Shown here: positions 4,121 through 53,741 of the stretch, in pieces
Position numbering within the stretch: position 1 is the stretch's first letter
Layout: the number at the start of each line of letters is the position of its first letter
From: Escherichia phage vB_EcoM_RZ
Sequence record: MW598459
Strand: one strand, 5' to 3'
Length of the DNA stretch: 64,000 bases
Translations under genes and position numbers: made by a program
The notes under the pieces: model-generated
What the model was told of the DNA's origin: nothing
The model's input: the letters and a program-made list of their open reading frames with translations, nothing else
Database searches by the model: none

Positions 4121-4409
4121 ATTTTTTCCAATCAGAAATCATATGAATCTCTTGGTCATAAGTCAAGAGACTACGAGTAATAATACCCTTACAAGGCCCA
4201 GAGATGAACTCGAGAGTAAAGTAAGGAACCTGTTTCATTAATCGGATACTTGGAGCATGACATCTAAAACGAGAGCCCTTAAAGGGCCCCGACATGAATA
4301 CATATTCTAATGGATAGAAATAAGCATATTCAAAATTTGTAGTAAGGTCCTCTCTTCGGACCTTACGTGAGAAATAGCAGAACTCAAAAAGTTCTTCATC
4401 AGTCATCAT
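4113..4409 (-). CDS. hypothetical protein
   Basis: 98-aa ORF in operon packing. Confidence 0.45.
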   Translation of the reverse strand: MMTDEELFEFCYFSRKVRREDLTTNFEYAYFYPLEYVFMSGPFKGSRFRCHAPSIRLMKQVPYFTLEFISGPCKGIITRSLLTYDQEIHMISDWKKYV

Positions 4410-4933
4410 TGCATTCCTATCACAAAGAACAGTGGCAGAGGTTTAGAACCTTGGCACATAAATTTATTCATCATTGTCTGATAAGCTTCATAGAACTTAT
4501 CCATCGCTGGTAGGCGAATAGGCTCTTCAATAATAATCAATAATCGGGTAACAGACAGTCCACGATATTTGTGAAAATGATCTTCATCTAAAAATGAACG
4601 AACAGTATCATATACAACAAAACCAGGTCGTTCAACATTAAGATGTGGCTGTGCTTTAGAAACCCGCTTTATTATATCACAGATTTCTCGTGAGCGATGC
4701 GAAGAACTCGACATAACAATTACATCATTACCCTTAGAAACCCAATCCGCAGCAAATTGTGCAATGGCACTTGTTTTACCTGTTTGCCTTCCGCCGTCAA
4801 GTCTAAGAGTACCAAACTCTTGCATTCTTGAAGCGGGTTCATACCAGGTGTATTGGTCTGAATCTAAGCGTTCAATGGCGCGTTCAGCGAAGGCGTGCAT
4901 TAAGGTTAGATAAATGGGAGTTAAAAATTTCAT
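4406..4933 (-). CDS. small P-loop NTPase-like protein
   Basis: 175 aa; Walker A GGRQTGKTS and Walker-B-like hydrophobic stretch LLIIIEEP. Confidence 0.5.
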   Translation of the reverse strand: MKFLTPIYLTLMHAFAERAIERLDSDQYTWYEPASRMQEFGTLRLDGGRQTGKTSAIAQFAADWVSKGNDVIVMSSSSHRSREICDIIKRVSKAQPHLNVERPGFVVYDTVRSFLDEDHFHKYRGLSVTRLLIIIEEPIRLPAMDKFYEAYQTMMNKFMCQGSKPLPLFFVIGMQ

Positions 4934-11099: not shown

Positions 11100-11446
11100 T
11101 ACGAACCTCCTTAATAAATTCTTCGGCACATTTAATTTTGTGCTCTTCTTGTAGGGAAACACATTTTTGTTCCCACTCTTTAACTCGTCCACGATATCCT
11201 TTATTCATATGATTTTGATGCCATACATTTATCAAAATCATACTCAGGACTGTAATAAAAGGAGCTGCGATTATTAGCGCCCAGGCAACTCCAACACTAA
11301 TGATATCCATATCCCCACAAACCACCATCATTATAACCCCAACAATGCACATGGACAAAGCTCCAAATGGAGGCATAAGGTCTTTATCAATCTTGTCTGC
11401 GTATACAAATTTTTCTGGTTTACTTGGCAGATATAACGTTCGCATT
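11086..11446 (-). CDS. small membrane protein (2 TM, C-terminal FIKEVRN)
   Basis: Start at MRTLYLPS with SD AAGGGG; two hydrophobic helices; its tail codons FIKEV contain the SD (AAGGAGG) of the downstream gene. Confidence 0.5.
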
Positions 11447-11992
11447 TTGAACCCCTTTAGCATATTCACGACATTCAGCAATAAAACGATTAAGCTTACG
11501 TTTCCGTTTACGACCCTCTAATGTATACTCAGCCGCCAAATCAAGAAGCTCATCTTTATCATAATTTTTAATATCAGTATAAGTTGGGCGGCGGTCAACC
11601 ATTCCAAAGTGGTCACCATTTTCCAACATCAAATAACACACCAAATGGTCATCATCGTCCGCATTAATAAGCTGCTTATAATCACTTGGTTCATTTAACG
11701 CATACACAGAATAACTCAGCCCAGCGAATTCCACTCGTTGAATACCCAGATTTACGTCAATAATTTCCAAGGCATCTGCAAAAGAAAGGTCTTCAGCTAA
11801 AGCAAAAATAAAAGGCAATTTGGTAGTATCGCCGCGACTTGTTGTTCTTCTTAAGAAATCATTGGAATAGCCCAAGTCGCGGCGGATTCTATAAAGAACT
11901 GTGTTAGTTTCAGTGGCAAGACCACTACCGCCAAACCATTCCACATTTGATAAAAGATTATCATATAAAGTCATAATTTTCTCCTCTCCCAA
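11420..11992 (-). CDS. hypothetical protein (C-terminal KRKRK..FIAECRE)
   Basis: 190-aa ORF, acidic core, basic tail. Confidence 0.5.
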   Translation of the reverse strand: MGEEKIMTLYDNLLSNVEWFGGSGLATETNTVLYRIRRDLGYSNDFLRRTTSRGDTTKLPFIFALAEDLSFADALEIIDVNLGIQRVEFAGLSYSVYALNEPSDYKQLINADDDDHLVCYLMLENGDHFGMVDRRPTYTDIKNYDKDELLDLAAEYTLEGRKRKRKLNRFIAECREYAKGVQNANVISAK

Positions 11993-12016
11993 TTAGGGGG
12001 CTTTACCCCCTTTATC

Positions 12017-12610
12017 TTACTTAAGTGAATTAATGTATTCTTCAATGTCAGCGGACGTGGTATCCACACCAACCTGTGGGCCTTTGAAGGTTTCAACACG
12101 CATCAGAGTGTCTTCAATATCAATCTTAGTCAATGCAGCGATTTCAACAACATCATCTGCAGTCGCAATACCCAGGGCAGATACCTTACGGGTTTCGCGG
12201 ATGTATTCCAGTTTAACAGCTAGTTCCTGACGAGAATCATCCAACTCTTTAACTTTCAATTTAATTTCATTACGCATTTCAACATAATCATCTGCCTTCT
12301 TACGAAGTTGTTTAGCAGTACGACGATACAGGAGACCCAGTTTAGCATGGACCTGGACATCCGCACCATCAGCAATCAGTTTGCGGATTTCACGCTCTTT
12401 TGAAGCGGCGAGTTGGTCTTTTTCATTCGCTAACTCACGGATGCGTTTTTCTTCATTAACCGACTTAACGTGGGCGGTCTGGAGCTCAGTAATCTTGTCA
12501 ATCAGGGTAGACGCTGCTTGAGTATATTGGTCTTCAATAGACAGATTTTTTGTCATTGCAGTACCCAGTTTGGAGCGGATGAATTCAACAAGTTTCTTTA
12601 AAGTATTCAT
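12017..12610 (-). CDS. hypothetical coiled-coil protein
   Basis: 197 aa, charged heptad-like K/E-rich sequence; own early promoter upstream. Confidence 0.55.
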
Positions 12611-12676
12611 GGTATTTCCTTCAGTTGGTTAATATTTTATTATCCAATGTTTTATTGTGTAACTCAGTATGGAATC

Positions 12677-12706
12677 ATTATGCCTTAAAGCAGGGGGCTT
12701 GTATAC
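12677..12706 (-). promoter_or_regulatory. T4-type early promoter cassette; -35 lies in a G5/C5 hairpin
   Basis: Minus strand GTATAC-N18-CATAAT-GATTCCATACTGAGTTACAC; hairpin GGGGGCTTGTATACCCCC (12693-12710) followed on plus by TTTTTT. Confidence 0.5.
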
Positions 12707-12718
12707 CCCCTTTTTTAA

Positions 12719-13162
12719 TTAAATTTCAAATTCTTTGCGGAAGTTGGAAGCATAAGACTGAACTGACGCTTTGTTGAATCCAAACTCACGCACAATCATA
12801 TCAATAACAGCTCTGCGAGCAGCACCATTAGACATATTAACAGTTTTGAACATATCATAGCATAAATCTTTGTTGCTCATACCGGAGCGTTTAGGTGCCT
12901 TACGCTCAGCTTTTGGTTCAGCTTTAGGAGTAGGTTTAACTTCTGGGTTAACCTGTCCATCATTCAGACCTTTAAAAATTTTACCTGCCAGAGTTGCCAG
13001 TTTAGCAGCTTCGCCACGAGTGATACCAAATACTGCCGGGTTAAATGAAATACCTTCAGCTGTCAGACGTTTGAAGAACATACGTGCTGCGGATTGTGCT
13101 TCAGCTTCAGAAGAGTTGTTTAATGCCAGTTTAACATACTTAACCAGTTTTGAAGTTTTCAT
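12719..13162 (-). CDS. hypothetical protein, paralog A (shared C-terminal VQSYASNFRK domain)
   Basis: Start at MKTSKLVKYV; C-terminal ~45 aa (NGAARRAVIDMIV..VQSYASNFRK) shared with ORF 13246-13671. Confidence 0.55.
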   Translation of the reverse strand: MKTSKLVKYVKLALNNSSEAEAQSAARMFFKRLTAEGISFNPAVFGITRGEAAKLATLAGKIFKGLNDGQVNPEVKPTPKAEPKAERKAPKRSGMSNKDLCYDMFKTVNMSNGAARRAVIDMIVREFGFNKASVQSYASNFRKEFEI

Positions 13163-13204
13163 TTTATTATCCCGTTTGTTTATTTGGTAACTCAGTATGG
13201 GATA

Positions 13205-13234
13205 ATTATACATTATCCCACCTGGAAGTAAAAC
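13205..13234 (-). promoter_or_regulatory. T4-type early promoter cassette with dyad around -10
   Basis: Minus strand TTTTAC-N17-TATAAT; -10 flanked by GGGATAAT/ATTATCCC; leader TATCCCATACTGAGTTACC. Confidence 0.5.
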
Positions 13235-13245
13235 ACTTTTCTCAA

Positions 13246-13671
13246 TTATTTTTGAGCTTTGCGGAAGTTGGATGCATATGACTGAACAACAGTCTTTTTG
13301 ATATCATGGGTGGTAACCAGAACATCAATCAGAGCGCGACGAGCTGCATTATCATTCATATCAATTTCTGCAAATGCCTGGAAGCAAATGTCACGAGCGT
13401 TACCAGATTTGGACTGGATTTTTTCTTCTTTAACTTCTTCAATTGGGAATTCAATCATTTCAGCTTGGATTAATTCAATGATAGATTCTTTTGACTGTTT
13501 GGTGTTTACCTTCAGTTCAGAATTAAGGGACTTGGCAATGGCAACAATCTGGGTTGAAGTCAGATGGATAAGTGCATCTTCACGAATGCAGATTTCACAT
13601 ACTTCGTCAGCAACCATTTTGTTAGTGATGCGGGTAACAGAGAATGCAGAGGTCAGGGTCAGAAAGTTCAT
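13246..13671 (-). CDS. hypothetical protein, paralog B (shared C-terminal VQSYASNFRK domain)
   Basis: Start at MNFLTLTS with SD GGAG; C-terminal NDNAARRALIDVLV..VQSYASNFRK. Confidence 0.55.
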   Translation of the reverse strand: MNFLTLTSAFSVTRITNKMVADEVCEICIREDALIHLTSTQIVAIAKSLNSELKVNTKQSKESIIELIQAEMIEFPIEEVKEEKIQSKSGNARDICFQAFAEIDMNDNAARRALIDVLVTTHDIKKTVVQSYASNFRKAQK

Positions 13672-13723
13672 TTTATTTCTCCAAAGTTTTGTTTGATTCA
13701 GTGTGTAACTCAGTATGGAATCA

Positions 13724-13752
13724 TTATGCACCCGGTCAATCTGGATGTACAC
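13724..13752 (-). promoter_or_regulatory. T4-type early promoter cassette
   Basis: Minus strand GTGTAC-N18-CATAAT-GATTCCATACTGAGTTACACAC; leader near-identical to the 12677 and 52392 copies. Confidence 0.5.
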
Positions 13753-13789
13753 TACTTTTTGAAGAAAATTTCAAATTTATTCGGGGTAT

Positions 13790-13810
13790 AAAAAAGCCCG
13801 CATTGCGGGC
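13790..13810 (-). terminator. rho-independent terminator
   Basis: Hairpin GCCCGCATTGCGGGC followed on the minus strand by a T-run; directly after stop of ORF 13813-14367. Confidence 0.6.
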
Positions 13811-13812
13811 TG

Positions 13813-14367
13813 TTAGTTCTTATAAAAGCGGAACGGATTTATATGGAAGGCGAGCATAGCCTTAGGGATGGGTCGGGACAGAAGGCTCTTGAGCTTCCAG
13901 CCACAATAAACACGCAGATAAAAGGTGATTCCACCGACCTTAAGATAAGGAACAGAAGCAAAAACACCCCAGGCATTGTCCGTCCACATAAAGAGCCATC
14001 CGTGATGAGCTTTATCCGGGGAACCAGATTCGACATCAGGATTACCTTTATAATGGAATTCTGAATTGCAATCACGACCGAGCTTGTGGTAAGCAAAATT
14101 GTATGCTTTGTTTCGCCAGAGCCAGGCTACTCGTTGGAAGTAAACACCTAATGGCCATTTTCGGATTTTTGACCAACGTTTGACATGACCCCGGTCACCA
14201 TCAATCGGATTATCATAAGTCATCATCCAATCAAACCCGAACGGAAGTTTACCAGTCTTTTTATTATGGAACGGAACTACAAATGGAGCCAGGATAACGG
14301 CCAGAATCATGGAGATAAAATCCAGCGGAACTAACAGAATCCAACTCAAATATTTTAACAGTTTCAT
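13813..14367 (-). CDS. hypothetical membrane protein
   Basis: Start at MKLLKYLSWILLVPLDFISMILAVILAPFVV (N-terminal TM helix); longer track ORF would run through a terminator. Confidence 0.5.
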   Translation of the reverse strand: MKLLKYLSWILLVPLDFISMILAVILAPFVVPFHNKKTGKLPFGFDWMMTYDNPIDGDRGHVKRWSKIRKWPLGVYFQRVAWLWRNKAYNFAYHKLGRDCNSEFHYKGNPDVESGSPDKAHHGWLFMWTDNAWGVFASVPYLKVGGITFYLRVYCGWKLKSLLSRPIPKAMLAFHINPFRFYKN

Positions 14368-14390
14368 ACGTTTCTCTTTAGTTGATTTAT

Positions 14391-14418
14391 AAAAAAGCCC
14401 CAACCTTTCGGAAGGGGC
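14391..14418 (-). terminator. rho-independent terminator downstream of tRNA region
   Basis: Hairpin GCCCC-loop-GGGGC followed on the minus strand by TTTTTT. Confidence 0.55.
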
Positions 14419-14454
14419 TATACCTTGTCGGGGTTCCACCTGCAAGGCAAGTGT

Positions 14455-14545
14455 TTGTACGAAACGCCGGGATTCGAACCCGGTTATTAAGCAGTTGACG
14501 CTACTCAATATTTTTAAAAGGCCATATCTCGACCATATCCGAACG
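14455..14545 (-). ncRNA. tRNA-like element (canonical T-arm and acceptor pairing, body non-canonical; possible long-arm tRNA, pseudo-tRNA or small stable RNA)
   Basis: Minus strand has CCGGGTTCGAATCCCGG T-arm and 3' CGTTTCG pairing with CGGAACG about 85 nt upstream; no convincing anticodon arm. Confidence 0.3.
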
Positions 14546-14718
14546 TTCCGTCAAAAACGCTACTCGGCTTACGGCAAAGATATTTCCTCGAATCGATAAT
14601 TCGGTGCGCCGTTTCTGCTGTGATATAAGGGGACATCAACAAATCGTAAAGATTTATTAATGTCAGTCCTTAAACAGGGAACATCAGTCCGACGACTTAC
14701 CGGTAGCGACCCGGTTTC

Positions 14719-16412: not shown

Positions 16413-16441
16413 ATTATACGCTATCCCATTTAAAAGTACAC
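16413..16441 (-). promoter_or_regulatory. T4-type early promoter cassette with dyad around -10
   Basis: Minus strand GTGTAC-N17-TATAAT; ATGGGATA/TATCCCAT inverted repeat flanks the -10; leader TATCCCATCAACTACTGAGGG. Confidence 0.55.
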
Positions 16442-50458: not shown

Positions 50459-52018
50459 ATGAAAAAGAATGCATTAGTTCAAAAATGGTCCGCTCTGCTG
50501 GAAAACGAAGCTCTTCCGGAAATCGTTGGTGCTTCTAAACAAGCTATCATCGCTAAAATCTTTGAAAACCAGGAACAAGATATTCTGACCGCTCCTGAAT
50601 ACCGTGACGAAAAAATCTCCGAAGCATTTGGTTCTTTCCTGACCGAAGCTGAAATCGGTGGTGACCATGGTTATGATGCTACCAATATTGCTGCTGGCCA
50701 GACCTCTGGTGCAGTAACTCAGATTGGGCCGGCAGTTATGGGTATGGTTCGTCGTGCTATCCCGCATCTGATTGCGTTTGATATTTGTGGCGTACAGCCT
50801 CTGAACAACCCGACTGGCCAGGTATTTGCACTGCGTGCAGTATACGGTAAAGACCCTGTCGCTGCTGGTGCTAAAGAAGCTTTCCATCCGATGTATGCTC
50901 CGAACGCTATGTTCTCTGGTCAGGGCGCTGCTCAGACTTTTGAAGCACTGGCTGCAAGCAAAGTTCTGGAAGTTGGTAAAATTTATTCTCACTTCTTCGA
51001 AGCAACCGGTTCTGCACACTTCCAGGCTGTTGAAGCTGTAACTGTTGATGCTGCTGCTACCGATGCTGCTAAACTTGACGCTGCTGTTACCGCTCTGGTT
51101 GAAGCTGGTCAGCTGGCTGAACTGGCTGAAGGTATGGCTACCTCCATCGCCGAACTGCAAGAAGGTTTTAACGGTTCCCAGGATAACCCGTGGAACGAAA
51201 TGGGCTTCCGCATCGACAAACAAGTTATCGAAGCTAAATCCCGTCAGCTGAAAGCAAGCTACTCCATCGAACTGGCACAGGACCTCCGCGCTGTTCACGG
51301 TATGGATGCTGATGCCGAATTGAGTGGTATTCTGGCTACCGAAATTATGCTGGAAATCAACCGCGAAGTTATCGATTGGATTAACTACTCCGCACAGGTT
51401 GGTAAATCTGGTATGACCAACACCGTTGGCGCTAAAGCTGGTGTGTTTGACTTCCAGGACCCGATTGATATCCGTGGTGCTCGTTGGGCTGGTGAAAGCT
51501 TCAAAGCTTTACTGTTCCAGATTGATAAAGAAGCCGCTGAAATCGCTCGTCAGACCGGTCGTGGTGCAGGTAACTTCATCATCGCTTCCCGTAACGTAGT
51601 TAACGTGCTGGCTGCTGTTGATACTTCTGTTAGTTATGCTGCTCAGGGTCTGGGTAAAGGTTTCAACGTTGACACCACTAAAGCTGTGTTCGCTGGTGTA
51701 CTTGGTGGTAAATACCGCGTATACATCGACCAGTATGCTCGTGCAGATTACTTCACCATCGGTTACAAAGGCGCTAACGAAATGGATGCTGGTATCTACT
51801 ACGCACCATATGTTGCACTGACCCCGCTGCGTGGTTCTGACCCGAAAAACTTCCAGCCGGTTATGGGCTTCAAAACCCGTTACGGTATCGGTATCAACCC
51901 GTTTGCTGACCCTGCTGCTCAGGCTCCGACCAAGCGCATTCAGAACGGCATGCCGGACATCGTTAACAGCCTTGGCTTGAACGGTTACTTCCGCCGCGTA
52001 TATGTTAAAGGAATTTAA
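50459..52018 (+). CDS. 23: major capsid protein gp23
   Basis: 519 aa; long stretches identical to T4 gp23 (AIIAKIFENQE..GGDHGY..TQIGPAVMGMVRRAIP..). Confidence 0.97.
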   Translation: MKKNALVQKWSALLENEALPEIVGASKQAIIAKIFENQEQDILTAPEYRDEKISEAFGSFLTEAEIGGDHGYDATNIAAGQTSGAVTQIGPAVMGMVRRAIPHLIAFDICGVQPLNNPTGQVFALRAVYGKDPVAAGAKEAFHPMYAPNAMFSGQGAAQTFEALAASKVLEVGKIYSHFFEATGSAHFQAVEAVTVDAAATDAAKLDAAVTALVEAGQLAELAEGMATSIAELQEGFNGSQDNPWNEMGFRIDKQVIEAKSRQLKASYSIELAQDLRAVHGMDADAELSGILATEIMLEINREVIDWINYSAQVGKSGMTNTVGAKAGVFDFQDPIDIRGARWAGESFKALLFQIDKEAAEIARQTGRGAGNFIIASRNVVNVLAAVDTSVSYAAQGLGKGFNVDTTKAVFAGVLGGKYRVYIDQYARADYFTIGYKGANEMDAGIYYAPYVALTPLRGSDPKNFQPVMGFKTRYGIGINPFADPAAQAPTKRIQNGMPDIVNSLGLNGYFRRVYVKGI

Positions 52019-52037: not shown

Positions 52038-52069
52038 GAAAGGGACCCTTGAGGTCCCTTTCTTGTTTT
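52038..52069. terminator. bidirectional rho-independent terminator (between convergent gene 23 and minus ORF)
   Basis: AGGGACC-CTTGA-GGTCCCT hairpin with T-rich runs on both strands. Confidence 0.6.
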
Positions 52070-52350
52070 CATACCATACCATTTAAATGAACTTCTACCC
52101 GGCGCTTGATAAGGTCTCTGAAGTTAACATTGTTTTCTTGAAGTTTCAACCAGTTACCATTTTTATCTTTAGTGTGAGTAGAATAATTACCATTCCACCA
52201 GAAATCAGTGTCATATGCTAAGTTTTCATATTTTTTAACTAGTTTGTTCAGAGCATTACCATTAACACCATTTGGGTATTTGTTGACCAAGGCAATAACT
52301 TCAATTTCCAGATTTTTAAAGGTGTTCAGAAGGAAAGTTGCTTTGTTCAT
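52069..52350 (-). CDS. hypothetical early protein inserted between genes 23 and 24
   Basis: 93-aa minus-strand ORF with its own early-promoter cassette; occupies the position where T4 carries segD. Confidence 0.5.
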   Translation of the reverse strand: MNKATFLLNTFKNLEIEVIALVNKYPNGVNGNALNKLVKKYENLAYDTDFWWNGNYSTHTKDKNGNWLKLQENNVNFRDLIKRRVEVHLNGMV

Positions 52351-52391
52351 TTTTAAACTCCAGGTTTTGTTTGTTAACTCAGTATGGAATC

Positions 52392-52421
52392 ATTATGTCT
52401 TATCTTAATCTGGTTGTAAAC
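52392..52421 (-). promoter_or_regulatory. T4-type early promoter cassette
   Basis: Minus strand GTTTAC-N18-CATAAT-GATTCCATACTGAGTTAAC; leader near-identical to the 12677 and 13724 copies. Confidence 0.5.
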
Positions 52422-52460: not shown

Positions 52461-53741
52461 ATGGCTAAAATTAACGAACTCTTAAAAGAGTCGACCACGA
52501 CCACAAGTTCTTCGATTGGTCGACCGAATCTAGTAGCTTTAACCAGAGCTACGACTAAACTGATTTACACCGATTTAGTAGCACAACAGCGCACATCCCA
52601 GCCACTGGCGGCATTATACGGTCTTAAATACCTGACTCAGCAAGATGAATTATCTTTCCAGACTGGTGCAACCTATTCCGGTGCAGTATCAGCAAAAGAC
52701 CGTGCGACCATTCCGGTTTTTGTTGCTGGCACAGTTTATGCTAAAGACGATTTGTTCCAGTTTGAAAATGTAGTTTATAAAGCGCTGGTAGCAACTCCAT
52801 TTGCTGGAGCAACGGGCGATGAGTATGACCAGCTTCAAGAAGCGATGGTTAAATTGACCATCCGTATTATGTCCGAAGCTGCAATCACCGAACGTTTTGA
52901 AGGACCACAGGAAGTCGAAATTGCCGAAGCTAAATTTTTGGTTAACAAATGGAATGCTCCGGTTAAATCTCGTAAGCTGAAAAGCACTGTTACAGTGGAA
53001 CTGGCCCAGGACCTGGAAGCAAATGGTTTTGACGCTCCAAACTTCCTGGAAGACCTGTTAGCTACCGAAATGGCTGATGAAATTAACAAAGATATCCTGC
53101 AATCCCTGGTAACAGTTTCCAAGCGTTATAAAGTTGCTGGGCTCTGTGATGATGGCCTGATTGACCTGTCTTATACTAACTCTCCGGAAGCTTCACGCAA
53201 GTTGTACGAAATCATGTGTGAGATGGTCTCCCATATTCAGCGGGCAACTTCTTACACCGCAACATACGTTGTTGCTTCTACGCGTGTAGCTGCAGTTTTG
53301 GCTGGTTCTGGTTGGTTGAAGCATCGTCCACAAGATGAGAAATATCTCTCCGATAATGCGTATGGTTTCTTGGATAATGGTCTACCGCTTTATTGCGATA
53401 CGAACACTCCATTTGATTATGTGACTGTTGGTGTTAAAGAAGATTTCGGTGGGAAAGAGATGGTGGGTTCACTGTTTTATGCACCTTATACCGAAGGTCT
53501 TGACCTGGAAGACCCTGAACATGTTGGTTCGTTCAAAGTTGTCGTTGACCCAGAAAGTTTGCAGCCGTCTATTGCATTAATGGTTCGTTATGCGTTAGCA
53601 GCTAACCCTTATACAGTGACTGCTGATGATAAACAAGCTCGTATTATTGATGCAACAAATATGGATTTGATGGCAGGACGTTCAGATATGTCTGTACTGC
53701 TTGGTGTGAAACTTCCTAAAGTTCTGACTGAAATAAATTAA
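52461..53741 (+). CDS. 24: head vertex protein gp24
   Basis: 426 aa (T4 gp24 427 aa); gp23-like fold motifs. Confidence 0.9.
   Translation: MAKINELLKESTTTTSSSIGRPNLVALTRATTKLIYTDLVAQQRTSQPLAALYGLKYLTQQDELSFQTGATYSGAVSAKDRATIPVFVAGTVYAKDDLFQFENVVYKALVATPFAGATGDEYDQLQEAMVKLTIRIMSEAAITERFEGPQEVEIAEAKFLVNKWNAPVKSRKLKSTVTVELAQDLEANGFDAPNFLEDLLATEMADEINKDILQSLVTVSKRYKVAGLCDDGLIDLSYTNSPEASRKLYEIMCEMVSHIQRATSYTATYVVASTRVAAVLAGSGWLKHRPQDEKYLSDNAYGFLDNGLPLYCDTNTPFDYVTVGVKEDFGGKEMVGSLFYAPYTEGLDLEDPEHVGSFKVVVDPESLQPSIALMVRYALAANPYTVTADDKQARIIDATNMDLMAGRSDMSVLLGVKLPKVLTEIN

What the first reader, a model, noticed from the sequence alone, without database searches (positions are those of the whole stretch)
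12719..13671. Adjacent paralog pair: shared C-terminal domain, unrelated N-terminal halves, each with its own promoter cassette
ORFs 12719-13162 and 13246-13671 share a C-terminal domain of about 45 residues (..D(L/I)C(Y/F)..F..(M/I)..(N/D)xAARRA(V/L)ID(M/V)(I/L)V..K..VQSYASNFRK) but have different N-terminal halves. Each is preceded by its own copy of the early-promoter cassette. This looks like domain shuffling on a common scaffold.
Basis: seen in the sequence. Interest (0 to 1): 0.45.

Follow-up and report, generated by a model that had tools for sequence, protein, structure and literature searches.

The report
Paired early phage genes sharing domain
Two neighbouring small early genes of a T4-like coliphage really do share a conserved 50-residue three-helix end domain behind unrelated front halves, each with its own copy of a known type of promoter cassette, but what the proteins do is still unknown.

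Summary
ORF A (12719-13162, minus) and ORF B (13246-13671, minus) share a C-terminal domain of about 52 residues (BLASTP E 3e-17; profile-profile E 2e-20). Their N-terminal halves show no detectable relation (hhalign probability 0.07%). Each gene has its own T4-type early promoter and leader, with an invariant CCATACTGAGTTAC at the likely transcript start.

The window is a Gaprivervirus (SP18/VR7/P479 group) and the locus lies in the variable e-tRNA region. The cassettes are PeSL-type promoter cassettes, already described by Arbiol 2010 and Comeau 2014. Close relatives differ here by whole-gene insertions and deletions whose junctions fall inside the cassettes.

The A/B pair is old, not a recent local shuffle. 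Class A and class B genes lie together in Morganella MP1, Erwinia RF1 and a metagenomic T4-like contig. A third, stand-alone copy sits just upstream of motA in SP18.

The family is very small (15 hits among 1.84 billion representatives) and has no Pfam or PDB relative. AlphaFold2 gives a confident, basic three-helix C-domain after a disordered linker.

Function is unresolved. My best guess is that the C-domain is a shared nucleic-acid-binding or docking module carrying different N-terminal effectors. Modest interest: a new member of a known kind.

The parts
12719..13162 (-). ORF A (class A), 147 aa, pI 10.0; matches phrog_18416
   Evidence: 99% identical to a hypothetical protein of phage P479.
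12968..13162 (-). ORF A N-terminal domain (aa 1-65): three helices, very basic (family median pI about 10.1)
   Evidence: AF2 helices 4-15, 19-35, 49-59 at pLDDT about 80. Weak sub-threshold DUF2786 signal in 2 of 12 family members, E 0.043. pI.
12881..12967 (-). ORF A linker (aa 66-94), rich in Lys/Pro/Ala/Glu (KPTPKAEPKAERKAPKR), predicted disordered
   Evidence: pLDDT below 50 for residues 71-91. The number of PKAE repeats varies between strains: 147 aa here, 155 aa in EAWsc9.
12722..12880 (-). ORF A copy of the shared C-terminal three-helix domain (aa 95-147)
   Evidence: hhalign E 2e-20. pLDDT about 90. HMM score 90.7 bits.
13246..13671 (-). ORF B (class B), 141 aa, pI 5.7; matches phrog_9997
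13447..13671 (-). ORF B N-terminal domain (aa 1-75), helical and acidic (family median pI 4.8), with conserved QLVxIAKSxNxxLKVNxKQSKE
   Evidence: Alignment A6. Low-confidence single-sequence AF2 model with 4 helices. No Pfam match. Unrelated to the ORF A N-domain.
13249..13404 (-). ORF B copy of the shared C-terminal three-helix domain (aa 90-141)
   Evidence: 94.6 bits.
13672..13811 (-). Cassette for ORF B: terminator stem-loop 13795-13811, A-rich stretch, -35 TGTACA (13751-13746), -10 CATAAT (13728-13723), invariant CCATACTGAGTTAC (13718-13705), leader with GGAG, then ATG
13163..13245 (-). Cassette for ORF A: -35 TTTACT (13232-13227), -10 TATAAT (13210-13205) inside the inverted repeat GGGATAAT..ATTATCCC, invariant CCATACTGAGTTAC (13200-13187), leader, then ATG. 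No terminator stem-loop upstream.
12611..12718 (-). Third cassette, downstream of ORF A, driving the e.6-like gene (12017-12610): stem-loop 12692-12711 with -35 TATACA in its loop, -10 CATAAT (12682-12677), CCATACTGAGTTAC (12672-12659), and the indel junction TGGATAATAAAAT (12646-12634)
   Evidence: and 53 (comparison with P479).
52351..52421 (-). Fourth copy of the same cassette (GTTTAC-18-CATAAT, CCATACTGAGTTAA), driving an unrelated 93-aa ORF (52069-52350)

Best explanation
What it is (largely shown). These are two old paralogous accessory early genes in the variable e-tRNA region of a Gaprivervirus, a T4-like coliphage of the SP18/VR7/P479 group. Each protein has a different N-terminal helical domain: strongly basic in ORF A, acidic in ORF B. 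A flexible linker follows, then the same basic three-helix C-terminal domain of about 50 residues. In that domain the third helix (VQSYASN[F/Y]RK) is almost invariant across paralogues and phage genera.

Each gene is a separate early transcription unit. It sits behind a PeSL-type cassette: a T4-type sigma-70 early promoter, a conserved transcript start ATACTGAGTTAC, and an A-rich leader with a Shine-Dalgarno sequence. These cassettes also serve as short homology patches. Recombination between them inserts and deletes whole neighbouring genes, as described for PeSLs.

How the proteins work (inferred, roughly 35-40% likely). The C-domain is a shared targeting module, most likely a helix-turn-helix-like nucleic-acid binder. 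The conserved exposed face of helix 3 (Q, S, S, N, R, K) would recognise one common DNA or RNA target. The different N-domains would then carry out different tasks at that target early in infection. The proteins are not essential: phage VR7 is viable with ORF A cut down to its N-domain.
For: Identity and context. The region is 98% identical to phage P479, and annotated relatives place it between e.6 and the tRNA genes.

Domain homology. BLASTP E 3e-17 and hhalign E 2e-20 for the C-domain; the N-halves are unrelated.

Fold. AF2 with a 12-sequence alignment gives an N-domain at pLDDT about 80, a disordered linker (residues 71-91) and a C-domain at pLDDT about 90.

Charge. C-domain median pI 9.4, class-A N-domain about 10.1, class-B N-domain 4.8.

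Age of the pair. A and B are neighbours in MP1, RF1 and metagenomic contig L008. Class-A C-domains group together and there is no within-genome homogenisation.

Protein-level selection. Codons for VQSYASN differ in the third paralogue.

Early promoters. Searches, with the T4-like early promoter literature (PMC1524935).

Cassette-mediated indels. The window lacks two P479 genes, with the junction in the repeated leader CTGGA[G/T]AATAAAA. VR7 carries an extra gene flanked by two cassettes. PeSL mechanism: PMC2839356, PMC4122927.

Dispensability. VR7 ORF A is truncated to 68 aa.

Against: No significant similarity to any characterised protein or fold:
- Pfam found nothing above threshold.
- PDB sequence searches gave nothing below E 0.09.
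- Foldseek against the PDB gave E above 2.

Three-helix bundles are also common protein-binding and oligomerisation modules. An invariant helix shared by co-expressed paralogues fits mutual or common-partner binding as well as it fits DNA binding. Early expression is inferred from promoter sequence only; there are no transcript data for this phage. The ORF B model is of low confidence (pLDDT 53).
Confidence: 0.45

Rival explanations
1. The shared C-domain docks onto a protein. It binds one conserved host or phage protein (for example RNA polymerase, a nucleoid protein or a replication/recombination factor). The N-domains bring different activities to that partner, as adaptors do.
For: Helix 3 is invariant across paralogues and across hosts from Escherichia to Acinetobacter, which suggests a single conserved partner. 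The domain is small and helical, sits at the protein end and follows a flexible tether. The stand-alone copy lies next to motA and could compete as a free module. No significant DNA-binding fold match was found.
Against: The conserved exposed residues are polar or basic (Q, S, S, N, R, K) rather than the hydrophobic patches typical of protein interfaces (inference). The domain is basic. No partner can be named.
Confidence: 0.25
2. The shared C-domain is an oligomerisation module. ORF A, ORF B and the stand-alone paralogue assemble through it into homo- or hetero-oligomers, which would explain why A and B are kept together as neighbours.
For: The A/B neighbourhood is conserved in at least four lineages. 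Interface residues that must fit each other across paralogues would stay invariant. The N-domains carry opposite charge, basic in A and acidic in B, which is compatible with a complex.
Against: Acinetobacter phages, Providencia PSTRCR_127 and Morganella Rgz1 carry a single family member. VR7 lost the C-domain of ORF A but kept ORF B. No multimer prediction could be run.
Confidence: 0.2
3. The pair arose by a recent local event: tandem duplication of one gene with its promoter cassette, followed by replacement of the N-terminal half.
For: The genes are adjacent, in the same orientation, with similar cassettes. The last 10 codons are nearly identical in DNA, 8 of 10 codons the same.
Against: The A and B C-domains are only 50% identical, and class-A domains from other genera are as close or closer. 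Both architectures exist with the same neighbourhood in MP1, RF1 and L008. Cassette similarity is a general property of the early promoters of this clade, including those of unrelated genes.
Confidence: 0.07
4. It is an artefact: chance similarity of low-complexity tails, or ORFs that are not real genes.
For: None beyond the short length of the domain and the absence of any annotation.
Against: E 3e-17 and 2e-20. Confident predicted fold. Full-length orthologues in several phage genera and in metagenomes. Each ORF has its own promoter, Shine-Dalgarno sequence and start codon.
Confidence: 0.01

Closest known systems
PeSL cassettes (promoter-early stem-loop) with ORFan modules in the variable regions of T4-like phages (Arbiol et al. 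2010, PMC2839356; Comeau et al. 2014, PMC4122927)
   Same: A strong sigma-70/T4-type early promoter with -35 and -10 boxes, an A/T-rich upstream stretch, and a Shine-Dalgarno sequence and start codon at the 3' end. The cassettes sit in a variable region in front of small genes of unknown function. Close relatives differ by insertion or deletion of whole genes with crossover inside the cassettes, here in the leader/SD part. Crossovers between the SD and -10 boxes were reported for RB49/phi1.
   Different: The sequence is specific to this clade: -35 TGTACA/TTTACT, -10 CATAAT/TATAAT, and an invariant CCATACTGAGTTA at the transcript start, which was not part of the published motif descriptions I read. 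Only two of the three local copies have an upstream stem-loop; ORF A's has none. Mini-circles and promoter or terminator activity were not tested here.
PHROG families phrog_18416, phrog_9997 and phrog_17275 (all 'unknown function')
   Same: ORF A and ORF B match phrog_18416 and phrog_9997 over their full length (E 6e-92 and 1.5e-71). Both C-domains also match the 71-residue phrog_17275, the stand-alone form.
   Different: PHROGs treats these as three separate families. The shared domain and the three architectures are not described there.
Homeodomain-like / helix-turn-helix three-helix DNA-binding domains
   Different: No statistically significant sequence, profile or structure match (E 0.099; hhalign 4.3%; Foldseek E 8). 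Helix 2 is about four residues longer. A conserved Cys in helix 1 has no homeodomain counterpart. This is a resemblance only, not membership.
Small, non-essential early proteins of phage T4 that act on the host nucleoid or the transcription apparatus (e.g. Ndd, MotB, Arn, AsiA; from general knowledge, not tested here)
   Same: Small, expressed from early promoters, dispensable, encoded in variable regions. One paralogue lies next to motA and near asiA and ndd.
   Different: No sequence or fold relation to any of them was found. The family is absent from T4 itself by tblastn.

Membership tests
PeSL regulatory cassette | Sigma-70-like early promoter (-35 and -10 hexamers, 16-18 bp spacer) directly upstream of a small gene | tested here: met
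   TGTACA-17-CATAAT (ORF B), TTTACT-16-TATAAT (ORF A), TATACA-17-CATAAT (e.6-like).
PeSL regulatory cassette | Stem-loop (terminator) just upstream of the promoter | tested here: inconclusive
   Present for ORF B (13795-13811, followed by a T-run). Present for the e.6-like gene (12692-12711, overlapping the -35, with no T-run on the minus strand). Absent for ORF A, which has only a short inverted repeat around the -10.
PeSL regulatory cassette | Shine-Dalgarno sequence and start codon at the 3' end of the element | tested here: met
   GGAGAAATAAAATG (ORF B) and GGGATAATAAAATG (ORF A).
PeSL regulatory cassette | Lies in a variable region, and indels between close relatives have crossovers inside the cassettes | tested here: met
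   The window against P479 differs by a two-gene indel with its junction in the shared leader. VR7 has an extra ORF146c flanked by two cassettes. EAWsc9 has one extra gene.
PeSL regulatory cassette | Promoter and terminator activity, and formation of mini-circles | not testable with these tools
   Needs reporter assays and inverse PCR on infected cells.
Homeodomain-like / HTH DNA-binding domain | Significant sequence or profile similarity to a known HTH family | tested here: not met
   Best PDB profile hit is 2da3 at E 0.099. hhalign against a homeodomain alignment gives 4.3% probability. No Pfam HTH hit.
Homeodomain-like / HTH DNA-binding domain | Three-helix fold that matches known HTH structures significantly | tested here: inconclusive
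Homeodomain-like / HTH DNA-binding domain | Binds DNA | not testable with these tools
   Only indirect support: basic pI and a polar conserved face on helix 3.
DUF2786 (PF10979), for the N-domain of ORF A | Score above the Pfam gathering threshold | tested here: not met
   ORF A itself has no hit. 2 of 12 family members hit at best E 0.043. One BFVD DUF2786 protein matches at Foldseek E 3.4.
Rho_N / SAP-like helix-extended-helix motif, for the N-domain of ORF B (annotated 'rho-N domain' in EAWsc9) | Match to PF07498 or to a solved Rho_N/SAP structure | tested here: not met
   No Pfam hit at E up to 5 in 5 class-B members. The PDB profile search gave nothing relevant. The resemblance is by eye only.
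PHROGs phrog_18416 / phrog_9997 / phrog_17275 | Full-length HMM match | tested here: met
   E 5.8e-92 and 1.5e-71. Both C-domains hit phrog_17275 at E 7e-07 and 3e-09.

The most novel reading that the evidence does not exclude
The C-domain may be a sequence-specific binder of the cassette itself, recognising the invariant CCATACTGAGTTA at the transcription start or 5' end of the mRNA. The family would then auto-regulate its own three genes and co-regulate the other cassette-driven ORFans. Alternatively it could be the cassette-specific 'helper' DNA-binding protein that Arbiol et al. speculated might target PeSL recombination.

Circumstantial support:
- All three paralogues (A, B and the stand-alone gene by motA) sit behind this cassette.
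- The cassette and helix 3 are both conserved across genera. The 92-nt cassette is 80% identical upstream of the family gene in Providencia and Morganella phages, whose C-domains are only about 45% identical to ORF B's.
- The cassette was detected almost only in genomes that carry the family.

Against:
- The same motif precedes unrelated genes, and all five early promoters examined in the MP1 locus.
- Phage fDHCT2 has the cassette, while the domain search did not list that phage.
- Shared ancestry alone can explain the co-distribution.
Probability: 0.07. Interest if true: 0.6.

Novelty: new member of a known kind. Interest (0 to 1): 0.3.

Why it matters
The variable regions of T4-like phages hold hundreds of small early genes of unknown function, and many of these are thought to be tools for taking over the host or countering its defences. 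This locus gives a clean, small example of how such genes are built and moved: a conserved 50-residue end module combined with different front domains, each gene packaged behind a recombination-prone promoter cassette. The family is small, has no Pfam entry, and offers natural 'experiments' (a stand-alone domain, an N-domain-only truncation, single-copy phages). That makes it a tractable target for finding the shared binding partner. If the module turned out to bind the cassette sequence, it would link the regulation and the mobility of these gene cassettes. As it stands, this is a well-defined but ordinary example of known phage genome plasticity.

Tried and rejected
- The search for homologous proteins with the 55-aa domain found nothing. 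With full-length ORF A it returned 5 proteins, and with the 20-sequence domain alignment only 1. The word index is a poor fit for this family.
- The exhaustive representative search gave only 15 hits, none annotated.
- Pfam scans of the proteins, the domain alignment and both N-domain classes gave only sub-threshold noise: PBP_like, HrpF, and DUF2786 at E 0.043.
- PDB sequence and profile searches gave nothing significant. The T7 Gp2 hit for the class-A N-domain (E 0.39) was rejected because Gp2, as I recall, is not an all-helical protein whereas the model is all-helical.
- Hypothesis that the N-domains are degenerate copies of the C-domain (internal duplication): rejected, hhalign 1.3% and 0.14%.
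- Hypothesis of homology to homeodomains: not supported, 4.3%.
- Hypothesis that the DNA-level near-identity of the last 10 codons marks a nucleotide element or gene conversion: not supported, because the third paralogue uses different codons.
- Rfam found no RNA family in the cassettes, only the tRNAs and a sub-threshold match on a terminator.
- The EAWsc9 annotations 'H15 domain' and 'rho-N domain' could not be reproduced. Many other labels in that record look spurious.
- A literature search for DUF2786 gave no functional information.

Full report
**1. Where the finding sits**

The window is a T4-like phage of the genus Gaprivervirus. Bases 12000-14600 are 98% identical to Escherichia phage P479 and 97-98% identical to CJ20, SP18 and the VR phages.

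All local genes are on the minus strand. In order of transcription they are:
- tRNA-Met and tRNA-Arg (15127-14974);
- a DUF7338 protein (13813-14370);
- ORF B (13671-13246);
- ORF A (13162-12719);
- an e.6-like gene (12610-12017);
- further e.x-like small genes.

This is the e-to-tRNA variable region of T4-like genomes.

**2. Checking the observation**

Both ORFs are at the stated coordinates.

- BLASTP of A against B gives 42% identity over 73 residues, E 3e-17.
- I built a 12-sequence class-A alignment and a 5-sequence class-B alignment from relatives found in 1.84 billion representative proteins. hhalign aligns only the last 52 columns (probability 99.3%, E 2e-20).
- The N-terminal halves compared on their own give 0.07% probability. 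Neither is a degenerate copy of the C-domain (1.3% and 0.14%).
- The window holds only these two copies of the domain.

The 14-mer CCATACTGAGTTAC occurs exactly three times, at 12659, 13187 and 13705 on the minus strand. With up to two mismatches there are five matches against 0.44 expected. Each exact copy lies six bases after a -10 hexamer of a T4-type early promoter:
- TATACA-17-CATAAT (e.6-like gene);
- TTTACT-16-TATAAT (ORF A);
- TGTACA-17-CATAAT (ORF B).

ORF A and ORF B therefore each have their own cassette, and the third copy drives the e.6-like gene.

**3. Anatomy of the proteins**

AlphaFold2 on ORF A with the 12-sequence alignment gives:
- an N-domain of three helices (4-15, 19-35, 49-59; pLDDT about 80);
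- a disordered linker (71-91; pLDDT below 50), rich in Lys, Pro, Ala and Glu;
- a C-domain of three helices (97-105, 113-127, 131-145; pLDDT about 90).

The single-sequence model of ORF B is poor (pLDDT 53), but it shows the same three C-terminal helices.

In the 20-member domain alignment the nearly invariant positions are one Cys and one Phe in helix 1, and V-Q-S-Y-x-S in helix 3. Most members have the whole string VQSYASN[F/Y]RK. By helical periodicity V, Y/A and F face the core, while Q, S, S, N, R and K are exposed. This last point is my inference.

The third paralogue uses different codons for this motif, so selection acts on the protein.

The C-domain is basic (median pI 9.4). The class-A N-domain is very basic (about 10.1) and the class-B N-domain is acidic (4.8).

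**4. The family elsewhere**

The family is very small. A profile search without a word index found 15 proteins at E below 1e-3 among 1.84 billion representatives. tblastn found the domain in 44 of 50,697 phage records:
- 33 Gaprivervirus records, mostly with three places each;
- Morganella phages (MP1 has two places);
- Erwinia RF1 (two places);
- Providencia PSTRCR_127 and Acinetobacter phages ZZ1, Henu6, W16 and 133 (one place each).

T4 itself is not among the records.

Except in the tandem form (P0015), the domain is always at the C-terminus. The architectures seen are:
- class A N-domain plus domain;
- class B N-domain plus domain;
- a divergent A-like form (P0002, P0005);
- the domain alone (69-74 aa);
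- a class-B protein with the middle deleted (P0010);
- a tandem form (P0015).

The third Gaprivervirus copy is a 71-aa stand-alone gene lying directly upstream of motA in SP18, with 2 bases between the two coding sequences. It sits between gene 52 and motA, near asiA and ndd.

Class A and class B genes are neighbours in several lineages:
- MP1: gp120 and gp118, one gene apart, near a tRNA gene;
- RF1: with an HNH endonuclease gene between them;
- metagenomic contig L008: DUF7338, then B, then A, then a Y16K-family gene, then e.6-like, and further on NudE and lysozyme.

C-domain identities are 50% for A against B in this window, and 52-61% between class-A domains of different phages. Class-A domains group together in a neighbour-joining tree.

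The pair is therefore old and inherited as a pair. It is not a recent shuffle at this locus.

**5. The cassettes**

They fit the published PeSL description: a strong sigma-70-like early promoter, an adjacent stem-loop, a Shine-Dalgarno sequence and start codon at the 3' end, enrichment in variable regions in front of ORFans, and recombination between copies that inserts or deletes genes (PMC2839356, PMC4122927). T4-like early promoters in front of novel ORFs are also documented (PMC1524935).

Here a proper terminator stem-loop precedes the ORF B promoter (13795-13811). A stem-loop overlaps the -35 of the e.6-like promoter (12692-12711). ORF A has none.

The locus shows the expected plasticity:
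- P479 carries two extra genes (101 and 132 aa) between ORF A and the e.6-like gene, and EAWsc9 carries one. The window junction TGGATAATAAAAT (12646-12634) lies in the leader repeat CTGGA[G/T]AATAAAA shared by the two flanking leaders.
- VR7 carries an extra 98-aa gene between B and A, flanked by two cassettes.
- VR7 ORF A is cut to its N-domain (68 aa) by a separate deletion that fuses it to e.4.

The cassette is not specific to the family. It also precedes a 93-aa ORF lying between genes 23 and 24 in this window, the extra genes of P479 and VR7, all five early promoters examined in the MP1 locus, and one gene in phage fDHCT2.

It is, however, present in front of all three paralogues. The 92-nt ORF B cassette is found in only 38 phage records, nearly the same set that carries the domain. 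It is 80% identical in front of the family gene in Providencia and Morganella Rgz1.

**6. Function**

No significant match to anything characterised was obtained:
- Pfam: nothing above threshold;
- PHROGs: three families of unknown function;
- PDB by sequence: nothing significant;
- Foldseek against the PDB: E above 2;
- BFVD: only family members;
- Rfam: nothing in the cassettes.

Taking together the basic charge, the polar conserved face of helix 3, the histone-tail-like linker of ORF A and the position of one paralogue next to motA, I favour a shared nucleic-acid-binding module that carries different N-terminal effectors early in infection. I give this only about 35-40%.

Docking onto one conserved protein (about 25%) and oligomerisation among the paralogues (about 20%) fit the same facts.

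The proteins are accessory. VR7 lives without the ORF A C-domain, and most T4-like phages lack the family.

**7. Novelty and score**

The cassettes and the gene-level shuffling are already described. The protein family is recorded in PHROGs only as unknown, has no Pfam entry, and its shared-domain structure seems not to have been described.

It is a new member of a known kind: PeSL-packaged ORFans of T4-like variable regions. Interest is modest (0.3).

The most novel reading still open is that the domain recognises the cassette's invariant start-site motif, acting as an auto-regulator or a recombination helper. I put this at about 7%.

Noticed in passing
window 12611-12718 (junction 12634-12646), compared with L002 2106-2955: The window lacks two genes (101 aa and 132 aa) that P479 carries between ORF A and the e.6-like gene; EAWsc9 carries one of them. 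The junction lies in the repeat CTGGA[G/T]AATAAAA shared by the two flanking leaders. As a result, the e.6-like gene here is driven by the cassette promoter instead of its own GTTTAC promoter.
   Followed up: yes
L005 (phage VR7) 2668-3330: VR7 has an extra 98-aa ORF146c between ORF B and ORF A, flanked by two copies of the cassette. Its ORF A is truncated to the 68-aa N-domain by a separate deletion that fuses it in another frame to the e.4-like gene, removing the C-domain, the e.6-like gene and the 190-aa gene that follows it.
   Followed up: yes
window 52069-52421 (minus strand): A fourth copy of the cassette (GTTTAC-18-CATAAT, CCATACTGAGTTAA) drives a 93-aa ORF with no Pfam match. The ORF lies antisense between the major capsid gene 23 (50459-52018, plus) and gene 24 (52461-53741, plus), so an early ORFan is inserted inside the late structural block.
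   Followed up: partly
L003 (phage SP18) 3405-3716: The third paralogue is a stand-alone 71-aa copy of the domain (SP18 gp274). It lies directly upstream of motA, with 2 bases between the two coding sequences, between gene 52 and motA. It has a cassette almost identical to ORF B's, including the extended leader.
   Followed up: partly
window 12881-12967, compared with L001 5073-5540: The ORF A linker contains PKAE-type repeats whose number differs between strains (147 aa here, 155 aa in EAWsc9). This points to slippage in a disordered tether.
   Followed up: no
L004 (Erwinia phage RF1) 3719-5191: An HNH-type endonuclease gene (4174-4677) sits between the class B and class A paralogues. Its start codon overlaps the stop of the class B gene.
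   Followed up: no
window 13205-13225; also the promoters with -35 starting at 16440 and 5913 (minus strand): The -10 hexamers of several early promoters are embedded in short inverted repeats (GGGATAAT..ATTATCCC; GGGATA..TATCCC; AGGGT..ACCCT). Related start-site sequences follow (CCATCAACTAC[T/G]GAG).
   Followed up: no
L007 (Acinetobacter phage 133) 2231-2668: The single class-B family gene in phage 133 lies on the opposite strand to all of its neighbours, next to the tRNA cluster.
   Followed up: no
window 11420-11992 (minus strand): The 190-aa protein downstream of the e.6-like gene has a weak sub-threshold Rho_N match (E 0.29) at residues 142-166, next to a KRKRK stretch.
   Followed up: no
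L001 (phage EAWsc9) annotation: Many product names in this GenBank record look like spurious transfers to small phage ORFs (malate synthase, profilin, VirB3, ubiquitinyl hydrolase). Its 'H15 domain' and 'rho-N domain' labels for ORF A and ORF B could not be reproduced with Pfam.
   Followed up: partly
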